Position numbers and translations under genes: made by a program. The notes under the pieces are model-generated. The model saw only the letters and a program-made list of their open reading frames with translations, was not told the origin of the DNA and ran no database searches. A DNA stretch of 64,000 bases from a phage: assembly GCA_029945195.1 (NCBI GenBank), contig GCA_029945195.1_4117.1; one strand, written 5' to 3'. This document shows, one piece after another, positions 22,997 to 29,379 of the stretch. The stretch's first letter is position 1. Each line of letters starts with the position of its first letter.

Positions 22997-23407
22997 ATGA
23001 TTGAAATGGAAGGAACTCTGGTGTATGATCCAGAACGTGGCACTATGAAAAAGAAGAAGGACTTCTGGTTAGTACTACAACTTCCATTACAGTTGGTTCG
23101 ATACTACCAGTACTTCATCAGAACTGACTTACATATTGATATTAAAGACCCACAATGGGGAGCACATGTCAGTATCGTTCGTGGTGAAGTGCCACCAAAT
23201 CCAGAGTACTGGAAAAAGTACGATGGAATGAAAGTAAAGATAAAGTTCAATCCTTGTATTGAGATAGTAAAAGATAAAAAGAATCCAGGTTCATTCTTTA
23301 TCATTGAATTTGAAGATGATTTCATCACACATATTAGAAATGAACTAGGACTACCAACCAAGTACTTTAAATATCACATCACTGTAGGTAGAACCTACTA
23401 CGATTAA
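22997..23407 (+). CDS. 2H phosphoesterase family protein (LigT/Acb1-like; putative cyclic-nucleotide or RNA 2',3'-cyclic phosphodiesterase)
   Basis: Two H-x-S/T-x motifs (AHVSIV and YHITVG) about 70 residues apart in a ~136-aa protein. Confidence 0.5.
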   Translation: MIEMEGTLVYDPERGTMKKKKDFWLVLQLPLQLVRYYQYFIRTDLHIDIKDPQWGAHVSIVRGEVPPNPEYWKKYDGMKVKIKFNPCIEIVKDKKNPGSFFIIEFEDDFITHIRNELGLPTKYFKYHITVGRTYYD

Positions 23408-23575
23408 TGTGGTTTTTACAGTAAATATGTCTTGTAATAAAATAAAAATATGCTATACTACTTAAACATTTGAAAAGAACGTTTTTGTACTGTAGAAAGT
23501 CCGATGTGGCTTTTACAAATGGCCTCTTTGCCATCTTTGTGATTGCCCATCTTAACAATCAACAAAGGAGGCGTT

Positions 23576-24502
23576 TTGAAACAAGCGAAAAAAGCACTGA
23601 AAACTAAGACTACTTATGGTGTTCTAGTTTGCACAGTACTTGTCGCTGCGATTGGATTTTATGGTTTTTCTCAAAATGATCGTGTATCATCATCGGACGA
23701 AAGTCAGGTACACAATTTAAAACCACAAGTTACGCAAATTCAAAAGCAGGAATTACCAAAGGTAGAAATATCAAAGGATGTTCCACGCGGCGAGAAGCAT
23801 TATACGGTTCAACCTGGTGATAGTTATTATTCTATTGCTAAAAAGTTTAAACCTAAAAATGTACAACTTGAAGAGTATGTTATTTTGTTGAAAAATATCA
23901 ATTTAAATGCTACTCTTCATACTTCTCAGGGTATCTTTATCCCAACAAAAGAGGATTTGAAGAACGTATTGTTACCAGATGTGACTGTACTGTTTGATTA
24001 TAATGATCCAGAAATTGTCAATCACATCAAAGAAGCTGAAGGTTCAATTGAATTTCAGTCCAAGAACAAACGCCGTTTACTTGGTGGGAAAGTCGGAGTT
24101 CCTTTCCACAATTCTAAATTTCATCCCTACAAGGACATGAAAGGTAATTATACAATAGGTTATGGGCATTATTTGGGTAGAAAAGAATCTGATGCGATTA
24201 AGTACAGAAACGGTATTACCAAAGCTCAAGCCAATAAACTTTTAATGCAAGATATGAAAAGAACATATAATGACTTTTTATTATTGATGCAGAAAAAAGA
24301 AGCAGTAAATCTGACCAAAGAACAACAACGTATTCTTTATGAAATGTCCTATACAATGGGTGTTGATAAATTAGCAACGTTTAATAAACTTTGGAAAAGT
24401 GTGAAAAATGATAACCCTAAGAAATTTAAAAAAGAAATTATGAATTCCTTATGGTATCGTCAAGTTACAAACCGAGCAGATTTGTTGTTAAGTTCACTCT
24501 AA
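23576..24502 (+). CDS. Membrane-anchored LysM + T4-lysozyme-like (GH24-like) protein; probable TTG start
   Basis: AGGAGG SD 5 nt before TTG 23576; N-terminal TM (VLVCTVLVAAIGFYGF); LysM-like YTVQPGDSYYSIAKKF; GNYTIGYGH...NGITKAQANKLL...SLWYRQVTNRADLL parallels T4 lysozyme. Confidence 0.6.
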   Translation: MKQAKKALKTKTTYGVLVCTVLVAAIGFYGFSQNDRVSSSDESQVHNLKPQVTQIQKQELPKVEISKDVPRGEKHYTVQPGDSYYSIAKKFKPKNVQLEEYVILLKNINLNATLHTSQGIFIPTKEDLKNVLLPDVTVLFDYNDPEIVNHIKEAEGSIEFQSKNKRRLLGGKVGVPFHNSKFHPYKDMKGNYTIGYGHYLGRKESDAIKYRNGITKAQANKLLMQDMKRTYNDFLLLMQKKEAVNLTKEQQRILYEMSYTMGVDKLATFNKLWKSVKNDNPKKFKKEIMNSLWYRQVTNRADLLLSSL

Positions 24503-24518
24503 AAAAGGAAGGTGAAGT

Positions 24519-24851
24519 ATGCTAAATCTAAATATTCAAGGCAACGTTGATATCACTCCAGCAATCCAAGATGCTATTTACAATGAAGCAAAAAGTCTGG
24601 ATAAGTACCGTACTTCTTCAGTACTAGACATTGGTGTTCATGTTAAGAAAGAGCATAAAACTCAATATGCTGTAACTTTAACTGCTGGTAGTAAATCAGT
24701 AACTGCTGATGATGCTGATTTGTATAAAGCAATTGTTGAATCTTTTGATAAGATGGAAACTGTATTCAGTAAAGACAAAAGCATTAAATTACACCGCCGA
24801 AACCATCCAGAACACCCAGTTCTTGATGATTTGACAGAAAACGAAGAGTAA
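24519..24851 (+). CDS. hpf: Ribosome hibernation promoting factor / RaiA-like protein
   Basis: MLNLNIQGNVDITPAIQDAI...LDKY...YAVTLTAGSKSVTADDADLYKAIVESFDKME...KDKSIKLHRR aligns along its length with bacterial HPF/YfiA. Confidence 0.7.
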   Translation: MLNLNIQGNVDITPAIQDAIYNEAKSLDKYRTSSVLDIGVHVKKEHKTQYAVTLTAGSKSVTADDADLYKAIVESFDKMETVFSKDKSIKLHRRNHPEHPVLDDLTENEE

Positions 24852-24861
24852 TATATACTAA

Positions 24862-24890
24862 AGGGACAGATTAATTCTGTCCCTTTTCTT
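24862..24890 (+). terminator. Rho-independent terminator
   Basis: Stem AGGGACAG/CTGTCCCT then TTTCTT. Confidence 0.6.
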
Positions 24891-24904
24891 ATGGAGTTTT
24901 AATT

Positions 24905-25300
24905 ATGAATTATTCCTGGATGGAAATTGTAAAATCTCTAATATCAACACATGATATGGACTTACCTGAACACCTAGTTATTAATAGATGGTACTATCCA
25001 TATCCAGATAACCGTTGTGTTGGGATTGGATTTTTTATTAATGAAAAATCTCAATATATTGGATTAATTGAAGATTATACAAAAACCAACATTGCGTTCT
25101 CTATTGAGTTGAATGTAGATCACATAAAATACTACACCAATAAAATGGACGAAGACGATGGTGATGTTATAATTCCAGCAGAAATAGACGAAGCTTCATT
25201 TTTTCAGTTATCATTAATTCATGATGTATCTGATATTACTTATGATAATGTGAAAGACCTTTTTATATTGTACAATAAACTGTATAATTACTTTTTATAA
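24905..25300 (+). CDS. Hypothetical protein
   Basis: GGAG SD, ATG. Confidence 0.5.
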   Translation: MNYSWMEIVKSLISTHDMDLPEHLVINRWYYPYPDNRCVGIGFFINEKSQYIGLIEDYTKTNIAFSIELNVDHIKYYTNKMDEDDGDVIIPAEIDEASFFQLSLIHDVSDITYDNVKDLFILYNKLYNYFL

Positions 25301-25313
25301 TGGAGATAAATTT

Positions 25314-28072: not shown

Positions 28073-28073
28073 C

Positions 28074-28322
28074 ATGAAAGTTAAAATTTATGGTCGCAAG
28101 ACTGGTTGTAAATTTTGCGACACTGCAAAAGCTGTATGTGAACAAAATAAATTTGAAATGGAGTTTGTAGATATTGTTGCTGAAGGTATCGATGGTTCAA
28201 AACTGTCTGAAATTTGTGGTGAACCAGTTCGTCAAGTTCCTCAAATTTTCGTAAATGACATTTATGTACCAGGTGGTTGTACTGGATTTATTGAAGGTCT
28301 TAAAGAAGGTCGTTGGAACTAA
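28074..28322 (+). CDS. Glutaredoxin / NrdC-like thioredoxin-fold protein
   Basis: CxxC motif GCKFCD near the N-terminus; about 82 aa; similar layout to T4 NrdC. Confidence 0.6.
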   Translation: MKVKIYGRKTGCKFCDTAKAVCEQNKFEMEFVDIVAEGIDGSKLSEICGEPVRQVPQIFVNDIYVPGGCTGFIEGLKEGRWN

Positions 28323-28564
28323 TGGATATTGAAAAAGTATCATCTCGTGCAAAACAACTAGCTGATACGTTGGGAGTAGAGTTTAAAATTCCTGATATTT
28401 CAATAGCTAAAGAAAAAGCCCAGATTAAAATTAACAAAATGAAAGAATATCTATCTAAACAAGAACAGTATGATTCGGCTGTAGAATTTATTGTAAAATC
28501 TTTTAGTAAAGATGATATTTTGGCATTTATCAAACATGTGAAGGTTTCTGGCAACCCTAAATAA
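28322..28564 (+). CDS. Hypothetical small protein
   Basis: ATG overlapping upstream stop (TAATG). Confidence 0.45.
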   Translation: MDIEKVSSRAKQLADTLGVEFKIPDISIAKEKAQIKINKMKEYLSKQEQYDSAVEFIVKSFSKDDILAFIKHVKVSGNPK

Positions 28565-28610
28565 ATGTGAAGAACAAAAAGTTCTTCTTAACAATTTGGG
28601 AGATACTATT

Positions 28611-28853
28611 ATGCTCAGTTTTCGTGAACAATTAGCAAAAGGTCAATTTCAGGCTAAAGCTCAAACTAATATTCCTAAAAAATCTGCATTTTTAGGAACA
28701 ATTACGGAAGATGGATTTTGTGATTATGATGCACCAGAAGATTCATGGTACATTACAAAAGACACAAAACGCAGTAATAGACTTCACAAAAGTACAATAG
28801 CTAGAAAGCATCGAAAAGAATTAAAGAAAATCCGTTTCGGTGAAGAAGAATAA
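28611..28853 (+). CDS. Hypothetical small basic protein
   Basis: ATG 28611 with GGGAG SD; the track start is a TTG. Confidence 0.45.
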   Translation: MLSFREQLAKGQFQAKAQTNIPKKSAFLGTITEDGFCDYDAPEDSWYITKDTKRSNRLHKSTIARKHRKELKKIRFGEEE

Positions 28854-28862
28854 TTTAAAATA

Positions 28863-28891
28863 AGGACTCTGACCACAGAGTCCTTTCTTTT
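28863..28891 (+). terminator. Rho-independent terminator
   Basis: 9-bp stem AGGACTCTG/CAGAGTCCT then TTTCTTTT. Confidence 0.6.
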
Positions 28892-28902
28892 CGGAGAATA
28901 TA

Positions 28903-29379
28903 ATGATTCATGAACACCGAGGTAATCTGTTTGAATTATTCAGTACTGTTACCGATGATCAAAATGCATTACATATTATTGCTCACGGATGTAATGCTCA
29001 AGGTAAGATGGGTTCTGGTTTCGCAAAGGAACTAAGGAATCGCTACCCAATGGCATATGATGATTATAAAGCATATGAAAAGGAAATGGGATTTCTTAGA
29101 ATTGGACAAATTGCATATTCAGCAATTAACGATAATTTGATTATTGCAAACTGTATTACCCAAAAAATGTACGGTAATGACGGTGCTAAATATGTCAGTT
29201 ATGATGCAATTGACGATGTGTTCAAACATCTAAATTATTTTTGTAAAGTTGATCGAGATGTTCATGTACATTTCCCGAAAATTGGAGCCGATTTGGGCGG
29301 CGGTAACTGGAACGTTATCAAAGAAATCATTGATCACCGTCTGGTCAATGCAGAAAAACACTTATACATTCTAAAATAA
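28903..29379 (+). CDS. Macro-domain protein (ADP-ribose binding / processing)
   Basis: HIIAHGCNAQGKMGSGFAKEL and HFPKIGADLGGGNWNVIKEII parallel the macro-domain NAAN..L.GGGGV and FP.I..G.YG motifs. Confidence 0.55.
   Translation: MIHEHRGNLFELFSTVTDDQNALHIIAHGCNAQGKMGSGFAKELRNRYPMAYDDYKAYEKEMGFLRIGQIAYSAINDNLIIANCITQKMYGNDGAKYVSYDAIDDVFKHLNYFCKVDRDVHVHFPKIGADLGGGNWNVIKEIIDHRLVNAEKHLYILK

What the first reader, a model, noticed from the sequence alone, without database searches (positions are those of the whole stretch)
22997..29379. Clustered 2H phosphoesterase, macro domain, Nudix hydrolase, CCA-adding enzyme, HPF and glutaredoxin: candidate RNA-repair / nucleotide-signal-degrading (anti-defence) module
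Within about 6.5 kb the phage encodes a 2H phosphoesterase (22997-23407), an HPF-like ribosome factor (24519-24851), a class II CCA-adding enzyme (26451-27563), a Nudix hydrolase (27640-28072), a glutaredoxin-like protein (28074-28322) and a macro-domain protein (28903-29379). An RNA-repair-type nucleotidyltransferase sits at 8055-10325. By established biochemistry, 2H cyclic phosphodiesterase, macro-domain ADP-ribose-1''-phosphate phosphatase and Nudix ADP-ribose pyrophosphatase are consecutive steps in disposing of ADP-ribose 1'',2''-cyclic phosphate from tRNA splicing and repair. 2H enzymes (phage Acb1) also cleave CBASS/Pycsar cyclic nucleotide signals, and macro domains and Nudix enzymes hydrolyse ADP-ribose-derived signals. 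The co-location suggests a coordinated system that either repairs host-cleaved tRNA or destroys NAD+-derived and cyclic-nucleotide immune signals. This is a hypothesis; no single gene proves it.
Basis: partly seen in the sequence, partly recalled or inferred. Interest (0 to 1): 0.8.

Follow-up and report, generated by a model that had tools for sequence, protein, structure and literature searches.

The report
Known jumbo-phage accessory gene block

Summary
The window comes from an Asteriusvirus jumbo coliphage (99.4% identical to slurp01 and SP27 over the block).

All six domain calls hold: 2H phosphoesterase, HPF, class II CCA-adding enzyme, Nudix, glutaredoxin and macro domain. So does the RlaP nucleotidyltransferase at 8055-10325.

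The gene order is conserved across Rak2-like lineages (RaK2, GAP32, Munch, a metagenomic relative). However:
- Terminator-like hairpins split the block into at least three probable transcription units.
- It is interleaved with a lysozyme, a GrxA-type glutaredoxin and several hypothetical ORFs.
- It mirrors a T4 region that holds Tk.4 (macro), nudE and Acb1 (2H) within 13 kb.
- In six distant 2H-family loci, no macro, Nudix or CCA gene lies within 10 kb. YqeY, HAD_SAK_2 and PTH2 recur instead.

The 2H protein is not detectably related to Acb1 by sequence. The macro is a Gln-type SCO6735/TARG1/DarG-class domain and a T4 Tk.4 homolog. The Nudix is NudE.1-like. No RNA ligase, polynucleotide kinase or Tpt1/KptA was found in the ORFs scanned.

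The RNA-repair and NAD/ADP-ribose readings were published in silico by Iyer et al. (2021, 2022).

Apparently new: in every Asteriusvirus genome examined, the Nudix gene needs a +1 shift at ACA-CGG-A, and substitution patterns show both frames are under selection. The RlaP gene also carries a polymorphic intein.

The parts
8055..10325 (+). RlaP-family nucleotidyltransferase (756 aa) interrupted by an intein with a LAGLIDADG homing-endonuclease domain. The intein spans about aa 321-666, nt 9015-10052.
   Evidence: Pfam RlaP 56.5 bits and LAGLIDADG_3 24.6 bits. Splice-junction-like sequences HGYD|CYSFDTEF and ALHGN|CKH. 121Q, PBECO4 and K64-1 match in two pieces over about 1230 nt, i.e. without the insert; TH47 matches full length.
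22997..23407 (+). Standalone minimal 2H phosphoesterase (136 aa) of the 2H-SAK family. Annotated as 'hypothetical protein' in every GenBank phage record seen.
23543..24502 (+). Lysozyme with a LysM domain. Unrelated to the proposed module. 121Q annotates a shorter 927-nt CDS that ends at the same stop codon.
   Evidence: Pfam Phage_lysozyme 45.1 bits and LysM 22.4 bits; annotation.
24519..24851 (+). HPF/YfiA-family ribosome-associated factor (110 aa).
   Evidence: PF02482 41 bits; TIGR00741 36.3 bits, just below its cutoff of 40.9.
24860..24886 (.). Terminator-like G+C-rich hairpin directly after the HPF gene.
   Evidence: A terminator is annotated after the HPF gene in UE-S1 and Munch.
26451..27563 (+). 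Class II CCA-adding enzyme (370 aa) without the HD phosphohydrolase domain of E. coli Cca.
   Evidence: PRK10885 matched only at 1-207 of 409; motifs present, no HD dipeptide.
27640..27702 (+). Nudix gene, first 21 codons (MRYSCGIIFYRDGQILIGHTT). This is frame A, which ends at a stop codon at 27727-27729 if read on.
27700..27706 (+). Candidate +1 shift site ACA-C-GGA. The in-frame codon is CGG at 27703-27705; skipping C 27703 restores the Nudix reading frame.
   Evidence: Invariant in 6 distinct Asteriusvirus sequences. CGG occurs once in 14,234 codons. Phage tRNAs are Thr(UGU), Gly(UCC) and Arg(UCU).
27704..28072 (+). Nudix gene, remainder (frame A+1) with the Nudix box GKAEGNETFKEAAVRECFEETGY. 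NudE.1 family. Public records annotate only ORF 27674-28072.
   Evidence: 36.9% identity to T4 nudE, E=6e-12.
28074..28322 (+). GrxA-type glutaredoxin (82 aa, CKFC active-site motif). Most simply the reductant for the phage NrdAB ribonucleotide reductase.
   Evidence: nrdA/nrdB in Sharanji; Munch annotates the equivalent gene as NrdC thioredoxin.
28862..28885 (+). Terminator-like hairpin immediately upstream of the macro gene.
28903..29379 (+). Macro domain protein (158 aa), Gln-type ALC1/TARG1/DarG/SCO6735 class, homolog of T4 Tk.4.
29720..30097 (+). Divergent PTH2-like (peptidyl-tRNA hydrolase 2) protein, 125 aa.
   Evidence: BLASTP E=1e-19 to the PTH2-annotated L002 protein. phmmer E=6e-46 to the RaK2 ortholog. 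The RaK2 and L002 orthologs pass the Pfam PTH2 cutoff. ph0011 annotates it as aminoacyl-tRNA hydrolase.

Best explanation
This is a conserved stretch of non-structural accessory genes. It was inherited from the T4-superfamily backbone and expanded in Rak2-like jumbo phages. It is not one pathway. The genes are small, separately acting enzymes in at least three probable transcription units, and they fall into two themes plus unrelated passengers.

Theme 1, keeping translation running during infection:
- The 2H enzyme opens 2',3'-cyclic phosphate ends left on tRNA or RNA by metal-independent host nucleases.
- The HD-less CCA-adding enzyme rebuilds tRNA 3' ends.
- The PTH2-like protein releases peptidyl-tRNA.
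- HPF binds ribosomes.
- RlaP, 13 kb upstream, adds back lost nucleotides.

Theme 2, undoing NAD-derived chemistry:
- The Tk.4-type macro domain removes ADP-ribose from a macromolecule. Its closest characterised relative, SCO6735, acts on thymidine-linked ADP-ribosyl-DNA, so DarT2-type DNA modification is the likeliest target.
- The NudE.1-type Nudix cleaves ADP-ribose, NAD or NAD-caps.

Passengers: the lysozyme (lysis) and the glutaredoxin (ribonucleotide reductase).

Shown here: folds, motifs, homologies, synteny, the hairpins and the frameshift. Inferred: every substrate and every biological role.
For: Domain identities.

Probable separate transcription units: terminator-like hairpins, matched by terminators annotated after the HPF gene in UE-S1 and Munch.

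T4 counterpart region with rI, Tk.4, nudE, tRNAs, Acb1 and gp1. Tk.4 is homologous to the macro family at 99.5% probability. The Nudix is 36.9% identical to T4 nudE.

Family-wide partners of this 2H are tRNA- or RNA-end-healing types:
- RNA ligase plus a DUF2828 RNA-binding protein lie immediately upstream in GAP32, Munch and L002.
- YqeY occurs in 3 of 6, HAD_SAK_2 in 4 of 6 and PTH2 in 1 of 6 distant loci.
- tRNA arrays lie next to the 2H gene in phage G and Vibrio 2.275.O.

The CCA enzyme lacks the HD end-healing domain of E. coli Cca, which leaves room for a CPDase acting in trans.

The macro keeps the essential Q85, N27 and H24 equivalents of SCO6735. SCO6735, DarG, TARG1 and AdfM reverse thymidine-linked DNA ADP-ribosylation.

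NudE.1 substrates in vitro are ADP-ribose, Ap3A, FAD, NAD and NAD-RNA.

The glutaredoxin is GrxA-like and the phage encodes nrdAB.
Against: No activity was measured for any of these proteins.

Asteriusvirus and RaK2 do not appear among the phages carrying the RNA ligase that neighbours the 2H gene in sister genera. No kinase or phosphatase was found in the window ORFs scanned. A complete anticodon-loop repair pathway is therefore not evident here.

The 2H gene stays within 3-8 kb of a macro gene (phage G, Atu_ph07) or of CCA and Nudix genes (Vibrio 2.275.O) at about 30% identity. That could reflect functional coupling rather than residual synteny.

The macro differs from SCO6735 at V25 (Gly here) and G128 (Asp here). 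It also resembles the Appr-1''-p phosphatase Poa1p (E=9e-16).
Confidence: 0.6

Rival explanations
1. [quoted passage not shown]
Against: [quoted passage not shown] No Tpt1, ligase or kinase domain was found in the window ORFs scanned, and Asteriusvirus does not appear among the ligase-bearing phages. The three genes lie in different probable transcription units. None of 6 distant 2H loci has a macro or Nudix gene nearby. The macro's closest characterised relatives are macromolecular de-ADP-ribosylases.
Confidence: 0.1
2. Anti-defence signal destruction. The 2H works like Acb1 and cleaves CBASS, Pycsar or type III CRISPR cyclic nucleotides. The macro and Nudix degrade ADP-ribose-derived immune signals such as Thoeris gcADPR.
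Confidence: 0.15
3. No functional relationship at all. The co-location is purely inherited gene order in a poorly recombining accessory region, and each gene serves an unrelated process.
For: The same order holds across the clade, along with clearly unrelated genes such as lysozyme, tk, dNMP kinase and the neck gene. The T4 counterpart region has the same mix. The promoter scan shows no enrichment. Other NAD/ADP-ribose genes of Ecwhy_1, NADAR QAY00367 and SIR2 QAY00582, have accessions far from the block's QAY00514-529.
Against: Translation- and RNA-related genes (2H, HPF, CCA, PTH2-like; YqeY and RNA ligase in relatives) are concentrated here beyond what I would expect from a random draw. The 2H gene re-associates with YqeY, HAD_SAK_2 or PTH2 in unrelated genome contexts.
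Confidence: 0.15

Closest known systems
Predicted jumbo-phage RNA-repair and NAD+/ADPr counter-defence networks (Iyer, Anantharaman, Krishnan, Burroughs, Aravind 2021, Viruses 13:63; Iyer et al. 2022, Viruses 14:1977)
   Same: The same protein families (2H, Macro, Nudix, RlaP, CCA-adding enzyme, PTH2) and the same two readings: clearing cyclic phosphate RNA ends, and degrading ADPr derivatives. An Asteriusvirus (Ecwhy_1) was in their dataset.
   Different: Their treatment is by family across genomes. In the passages I read, this particular block, its T4 counterpart, the Nudix frameshift and HPF are not described (a search for 'hibernation' and 'S30AE' found nothing).
Phage T4 region rI - tk - Tk.4 - vs - regB - denV - e - nudE - tRNAs - 57B (Acb1) - gp1
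   Same: It contains homologs of the macro (Tk.4, 99.5% probability) and the Nudix (nudE, 36.9% identity), plus a 2H enzyme, within 13 kb and next to the dNMP kinase gene. The RaK2 and GAP32 annotations label the block genes tk, rI.-1, e, nudE and tk.4.
   Different: The order is permuted. T4's 2H (Acb1) is not sequence-related to this 2H. The HPF, CCA and PTH2-like genes of the window block have no counterpart in the T4 stretch shown.
SCO6735, DarG2, TARG1 and phage AdfM (PhiKZ gp104): macrodomains that reverse thymidine-linked DNA ADP-ribosylation
   Same: Same macro class by profile (SCO6735 4e-20, DarG about 1e-12 to 1e-11, TARG1 1.6e-10; AdfM 97.8% probability). The essential SCO6735 residues Q85, N27 and H24 are conserved.
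   Different: There is no catalytic lysine (CITQ here, FPTK in AdfM and DarG). V25 is Gly and G128 is Asp. Identity to AdfM is only about 20%. No activity data exist.
Anti-CBASS nuclease Acb1 (T4 57B; PDB 7t26/7t27)
   Different: No detectable sequence homology. Pfam assigns the window protein to 2H-SAK. A clade member has a separate Acb1-annotated protein.
T4 NudE.1 Nudix hydrolase
   Same: Homologous over 81% of its length, with the Nudix box intact. Its known in-vitro substrates are ADP-ribose, Ap3A, FAD, NAD and NAD-capped RNA.
   Different: In Asteriusvirus the gene is interrupted by a 1-nt insertion and needs +1 recoding for a full-length product.
Programmed +1 ribosomal frameshifting at a hungry codon (E. 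coli prfB, yeast Ty1 and Ty3; named from my own knowledge)
   Same: A conserved shift site with a very rare in-frame A-site codon (CGG, 0.07 per 1000) and an available +1 codon (GGA). Purifying selection switches frame at the site.
   Different: ACA cannot re-pair in the +1 frame (CAC), so any shift would be Ty3-like occlusion rather than slippage. No obvious Shine-Dalgarno stimulator is present. The downstream RNA structure is only marginal (z=-2.0). There is no protein-level evidence.

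Membership tests
2H phosphoesterase superfamily | Two H-x-T/S-x motifs | tested here: met
   HVSI (H57, S59) and HITV (H127, T129). 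H57, H127 and T129 are invariant and S59 nearly invariant in 19 homologs.
2H phosphoesterase superfamily | 2H fold | tested here: met
Pfam 2H-SAK (PF22547) | Score at or above the gathering cutoff of 27 bits | tested here: inconclusive
   The window protein scores 25.8 bits over aa 89-136 only. Most homologs carry a precomputed PF22547 hit.
Acb1 (anti-CBASS 2H nuclease) | Sequence homology to T4 57B/Acb1 | tested here: not met
   hhalign of the family profile against T4 Acb1: probability 0.4%, E=0.14. No tblastn hit in the window.
Acb1 (anti-CBASS 2H nuclease) | Hydrolysis of cyclic di- or trinucleotide signals | not testable with these tools
   Needs an enzyme assay.
ALC1/TARG1/DarG/SCO6735-class macrodomain | Profile similarity restricted to this class | tested here: met
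   BT1257 5e-27, SCO6735 4e-20, Poa1p 9e-16, DarG about 1e-12 to 1e-11, TARG1 1.6e-10; no MacroD- or nsP3-type hit listed. The only NCBIfam hit is DarG.
SCO6735-type (Gln) catalytic set | Q85, N27, H24 and G126 conserved | tested here: met
   Window Q87, N31, H28 and G128 are invariant in 29 family members; residue roles from PMC9411070.
SCO6735-type (Gln) catalytic set | V25 (positions the catalytic water) and G128 | tested here: not met
   G29 replaces V25 and D130 replaces G128. The G128-equivalent position varies in the family.
AdfM/DarG2 anti-DarT2 macrodomain | Catalytic lysine (FPTK) and removal of ADP-ribose from DarT2-modified DNA | tested here: not met
   The lysine is replaced by Gln (CITQ against FPTK). 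Activity is not testable here.
Nudix hydrolase, NudE.1 family | Nudix box GX5EX7REUXEEXGU and homology to T4 NudE.1 | tested here: met
   GKAEGNETFKEAAVRECFEETGY; 36.9% identity, E=6e-12 to T4 nudE.
Nudix hydrolase, NudE.1 family | A single intact ORF covering the whole domain | tested here: not met
   A 1-nt insertion splits the gene in all Asteriusvirus sequences examined. The domain's first strands (Pfam positions 7-25) are encoded in the other frame.
Class II CCA-adding enzyme | Head-domain motifs GGxVRD, DxD, RRD and EDxxR | tested here: met
   GGYVRD at 7, DKD at 21, RRD at 91, EDPLR at 132; Pfam 66.8 and 33.2 bits.
Multifunctional CCA addition/repair protein (E. coli Cca type) | C-terminal HD phosphohydrolase domain | tested here: not met
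   PRK10885 is matched only at 1-207 of 409, 272 bits against a cutoff of 451. No HD dipeptide in the protein.
HPF/YfiA | S30AE domain | tested here: met
   PF02482, 41 bits against a cutoff of 23.7. TIGR00741 scores 36.3, just below 40.9.
RlaP nucleotidyltransferase | PF10127 domain; association with an RNA ligase | tested here: inconclusive
   The domain is met at 56.5 bits. No RNA ligase was found in the window, and the GAP32-type ligase search returned no Escherichia or Klebsiella phages among the leading organism counts.
Single operon or functional system (2H + macro + Nudix) | Co-transcription | tested here: not met
   Terminator-like hairpins at 24860-24886 and 28862-28885 separate the three genes. 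This is a consensus scan only.
Single operon or functional system (2H + macro + Nudix) | Linkage conserved beyond the clade | tested here: not met
   5 of 5 Rak2-like loci keep it, and phages G, Atu_ph07 and Vibrio 2.275.O keep parts of it. None of 6 distant 2H loci has a macro, Nudix or CCA gene within 10 kb.
Programmed +1 ribosomal frameshift | Conserved shift site, selection switching frame at the site, and a rare A-site codon | tested here: met
   The site is invariant. nt 1-63: 4 synonymous and 0 non-synonymous changes in frame A, against 0 and 4 in frame B. nt 91-433: 46/24 in frame B against 3/67 in frame A. CGG occurs once in 14,234 codons.
Programmed +1 ribosomal frameshift | A full-length trans-frame protein is made | not testable with these tools
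   Needs mass spectrometry, ribosome profiling or a reporter assay.

The most novel reading that the evidence does not exclude
The NudE.1-type Nudix gene of all Asteriusvirus phages is expressed through a conserved programmed +1 ribosomal frameshift at ACA-CGG-A. The ribosome stalls on CGG, a codon this phage almost never uses and its own tRNA-Arg(UCU) does not read. The phage-supplied tRNA-Gly(UCC) then reads GGA in the +1 frame. This gives a full-length Nudix collinear with the intact gene of sister genera. The amount of an NAD/ADP-ribose/NAD-cap hydrolase would then depend on the tRNA status of the infected cell. The alternatives my evidence does not exclude are a two-piece Nudix (a 29-aa peptide plus the C-terminal ORF) or an N-terminally truncated enzyme.
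Probability: 0.4. Interest if true: 0.55.

Novelty: already known. Interest (0 to 1): 0.3.

Why it matters
The cluster adds little as described. The genes are annotated in public Asteriusvirus records (apart from the 2H, which is called hypothetical), and the RNA-repair and NAD/ADP-ribose counter-defence readings are already published as predictions.

Its practical value is as a short list of candidates for experiment:
- A Gln-type Tk.4-family macrodomain, present in about 1,800 phage records including the T-even phages. It could be the unidentified factor that keeps T4 resistant to DarTG2.
- A 653-member family of minimal 2H enzymes whose substrate (RNA ends or cyclic nucleotide signals) is unknown.

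If the Nudix frameshift is confirmed, it would be a rare example of +1 recoding in a phage accessory gene, and it would correct the annotation of all records in the genus.

Tried and rejected
- PDB sequence search with the 2H protein: only chance hits to circovirus capsids.
- Sigma-70 promoter scan: no enrichment, 55 found against 54.7 expected, so operon starts cannot be read from consensus.
- tRNA scan of the window: none found.
- Searches for RNA ligase, DUF2828, YqeY, PRTase_3 and HAD homologs in the window: none.
- Pfam on 20 further flanking or intervening ORFs: nothing relevant.
- The GTATCTGA motif upstream of the Nudix gene is not a general promoter element in the window (5 matches against 1.7 expected).
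- RNA structure downstream of the shift site: z=-2.0, not decisive.
- Whether Asteriusvirus has its own Acb1 could not be settled. A sampled listing of 1,486 Acb1-bearing records shows none, which proves nothing. There is none in the window.
- Burroughs and Aravind 2016, which defines the SAK families, is not in the library.
- I first wondered whether the Nudix split was simple decay or a sequencing error. I rejected this because it is identical in independently sequenced genomes down to about 84% DNA identity, and both frames show purifying selection on the appropriate side of the site.
- CMSTMSU was excluded as a low-quality assembly.
- The search of protein representatives and the second structure prediction were not used.

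Full report
**Source of the window.** The 6.4-kb region is 99.4% identical to Escherichia phages slurp01 and SP27 and 97% identical to 121Q. It matches 36 phage records, nearly all of 310-386 kb. In 121Q it corresponds to genes 531-544. These are followed by a T4 gp13-like neck gene, dNMP kinase and the tail sheath.

**Observation.**
- HPF, the CCA-adding enzyme, the Nudix and the glutaredoxin pass Pfam's curated cutoffs. The 2H (25.8 bits against 27) and the macro (16.4 against 22) do not.
- The macro matches PDB BT1257 at 1e-15 and SCO6735 at 1.6e-11.
- The ORF at 8055-10325 has an RlaP head domain.
- The CCA enzyme has all class II motifs but no HD domain. It matches the E. coli 'CCA addition/repair' model only over residues 1-207 of 409.

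**The Nudix gene is frameshifted.**
- ATG 27640 opens MRYSCGIIFYRDGQILIGHTT..., a normal Nudix N-terminus. The Nudix box is in the +1 frame.
- Compared with the intact 145-aa gene of a distant relative, the window and 121Q carry one extra base at ACA-ACA-C-GGA.
- Every Asteriusvirus sequence I extracted has the same split. These are the window, 121Q, UE-S1, ph0011, WPEC5, TH47 and Ecwhy_1. The low-quality CMSTMSU assembly shows it too but was left out of the substitution counts.
- All relatives outside the genus that were examined are intact. They include RaK2, GAP32, Munch, CBB, BF, fHe-Yen9-04, Vibrio 2.275.O and metagenomic contigs.
- Among six distinct Asteriusvirus sequences, the four variable sites in nt 1-63 are all synonymous in the ATG-27640 frame and non-synonymous in the annotated frame. 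In nt 91-433 the annotated frame shows 46 synonymous and 24 non-synonymous sites, against 3 and 67 for the other frame.
- The shift site is invariant.
- Skipping C27703 gives a 143-aa protein collinear with the intact homologs. It also extends the Pfam NUDIX match from profile position 26 back to position 7.
- The in-frame codon at the site, CGG, occurs once in 14,234 codons of the window's long ORFs.
- The closely related phage Sharanji encodes tRNA-Thr(UGU), tRNA-Gly(UCC) and tRNA-Arg(UCU). These read ACA, GGA and AGA, but not CGG.
- None of the public annotations seen marks the shift, and neither genus paper I searched mentions it.
- I read this as a candidate programmed +1 frameshift. A two-piece or truncated enzyme is not excluded.

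**Is it a module? Conservation within the clade.**
- The order 2H, lysozyme, (HPF), CCA, Nudix, Grx, (YqeY), macro, PTH2-like, neck is conserved in RaK2, GAP32, Munch and a 106-kb metagenomic contig whose 2H is only 49% identical.
- GAP32, Munch and that contig also have an RNA ligase and a DUF2828 RNA-binding protein immediately upstream of the 2H gene.

**Is it a module? Beyond the clade.**
- Bacillus phage G and Agrobacterium phage Atu_ph07 keep a macro gene 3-5 kb from the 2H gene. Vibrio phage 2.275.O keeps CCA and Nudix genes 4-8 kb away. tRNA arrays lie nearby in phage G and the Vibrio phage.
- The 2H family has 653 members. In six sampled members at 35-42% identity on large environmental contigs, my own profile searches found no macro, NudE.1-type Nudix, CCA or HPF gene within 10 kb.
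- The recurring neighbours there are YqeY (3 of 6), HAD_SAK_2 (4 of 6), PTH2 (1 of 6) and NAMPT (3 of 6).

**Is it a module? Inside the window.**
- Terminator-like hairpins follow HPF (24860-24886) and precede the macro gene (28862-28885). Terminators are annotated after the HPF gene in UE-S1 and Munch.
- The block also holds a lysozyme, a GrxA-type glutaredoxin whose natural partner NrdAB is encoded by the phage, and several ORFs without any family match.

**T4 counterpart.**
- T4 carries rI, Tk.1-3, Tk.4 (annotated with an A1pp motif), vs, regB, denV, nudE, the tRNA cluster, ipI, a 152-aa ORF and gp1 dNMP kinase in one 15-kb stretch.
- The 152-aa ORF is Acb1 (E=4e-62 to PDB 7t26).
- Tk.4 is homologous to the window's macro family (99.5% probability, E=1e-22).
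- T4 nudE is 36.9% identical to the window's Nudix.
- The RaK2 and GAP32 annotations independently label block genes as rI.-1, tk, e, nudE and tk.4.
- The macro + Nudix + 2H co-location therefore predates the jumbo phages. It is most simply inherited synteny that was later expanded with translation genes.

**What the 2H is.**
- By sequence the family is unrelated to T4 Acb1 (hhalign probability 0.4%).
- Pfam groups it with the 2H domain of 'Swiss Army Knife' RNA-repair proteins.
- Yersinia phage fHe-Yen9-04 has both this 2H (P0016) and a separate protein named Acb1 in BFVD.
- Together with the ligase, YqeY, HAD_SAK_2, PTH2 and tRNA neighbours, this favours an RNA-end cyclic phosphodiesterase. 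The CCA enzyme's lack of the HD end-healing domain gives a rationale for one acting in trans. This step is inference.

**What the macro is.**
- The family profile hits BT1257, SCO6735, Poa1p, DarG and TARG1, and no MacroD- or nsP3-type macrodomain is listed. The only NCBIfam match is DarG.
- The residues essential in SCO6735 (Q85, N27, H24) are invariant here. V25 and G128 are not conserved.
- SCO6735, DarG, TARG1 and the recently described phage AdfM remove thymidine-linked ADP-ribose from DNA. AdfM aligns to this family at 97.8% probability but uses a lysine.
- T2 and T4 stay DarTG2-resistant without AdfN by an unidentified factor. The Tk.4 family is a candidate for that factor; this is inference.
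- Poa1p-like Appr-1''-p phosphatase activity remains possible.

**What the Nudix is.** It is a NudE.1-family enzyme. In vitro, T4 NudE.1 cleaves ADP-ribose, Ap3A, FAD and NAD, and it decaps NAD-RNA.

**The Appr>p chain lacks a source.**
- No ligase, kinase, phosphatase or Tpt1 domain was found in the window ORFs scanned.
- The GAP32-type ligase search returned no Escherichia or Klebsiella phages among its leading organism counts.

**Prior knowledge.**
- Iyer et al. 2021 (PMC7824862) and 2022 (PMC9503650) already propose that jumbo-phage 2H, Macro and Nudix enzymes clear cyclic-phosphate RNA ends and ADPr derivatives. They also propose that RlaP, the CCA-adding enzyme and PTH2 repair the translation apparatus.
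- The Sharanji genome paper lists HPF and CCA under translation.
- The finding is thus a correct reading of a known block with a previously published hypothesis.

**Verdict.** The best explanation (confidence 0.6) is a mosaic of independently acting accessory genes with two themes, translation maintenance and reversal of NAD-derived modifications, held together mainly by inherited synteny. Interest is low to moderate. The conserved +1 frameshift in the Nudix gene and the polymorphic intein in RlaP are the features most worth following up.

Noticed in passing
window 27640-28072 (shift site 27700-27706): The Nudix gene is split by a 1-nt insertion that is conserved in every Asteriusvirus sequence examined and absent from sister genera. 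Substitution patterns show the upstream frame is translated. The in-frame codon at the site, CGG, is used once in 14,234 codons. Candidate programmed +1 frameshift, not marked in any public record seen.
   Followed up: yes
window 8055-10325 (insert about 9015-10052): The RlaP nucleotidyltransferase carries an insertion of about 346 aa that looks like an intein with a LAGLIDADG domain. It is absent from 121Q, PBECO4 and K64-1 and present in TH47. Mycobacteriophage gp3 nucleotidyltransferases share similarity across the insert region (aa 304-754, 31% identity).
   Followed up: partly
window 29720-30097: A 125-aa ORF near the end of the block is a divergent PTH2-type peptidyl-tRNA hydrolase homolog. 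It has no Pfam hit itself, but its orthologs in RaK2 and L002 pass the cutoff.
   Followed up: partly
window 25490-25906 and 25893-26315 (possibly also 24905-25300): Two adjacent paralogous ORFs (both phrog_20693, unknown function) share a C-terminal motif QY.FIDDTFGID..Y. They sit between the HPF and CCA genes. Their number varies between relatives.
   Followed up: no
window 27587-27611; the same position in L011, L012, L002 and L006: A conserved element TATA..(N)..GTATCTGA lies 20-40 nt upstream of the Nudix start codon in five lineages. The GTATCTGA core is not a general motif in the window (5 matches against 1.7 expected). It may be a gene-specific promoter or regulatory site.
   Followed up: partly
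window 26451-27563: The phage CCA-adding enzyme matches E. coli Cca only in the N-terminal 207 residues and has no HD motif. It therefore lacks the host enzyme's 2',3'-cyclic phosphodiesterase/phosphatase end-healing domain.
   Followed up: yes
window 24860-24886 and 28862-28885: Two strong G+C-rich hairpins (10-11 bp stems) lie in intergenic gaps. A near-consensus sigma-70-like promoter (TTGACA-17-TATACT, 24831-24859) abuts the first one.
   Followed up: partly
L034-L039 (distant 2H loci); L038 14527-14760: In T4-like environmental contigs the 2H gene recurs with DUF3307, YqeY, thioredoxin, HAD_SAK_2, Nuc_deoxyri_tr2 and NAMPT genes in a similar order. One locus has an Acb2/Tad1-hairpin gene 4 kb from the 2H.
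   Followed up: no
window 15005-15661, 15994-16467, 17622-18059: An HNH endonuclease, a DUF7325 protein and a DUF5856/ferritin-like protein lie upstream of the block.
   Followed up: no
window about 48000-62000: Cumulative GC skew reverses near 48-50 kb. This coincides with a switch to large minus-strand ORFs (49148-61897, including one of 1,841 aa).
   Followed up: no
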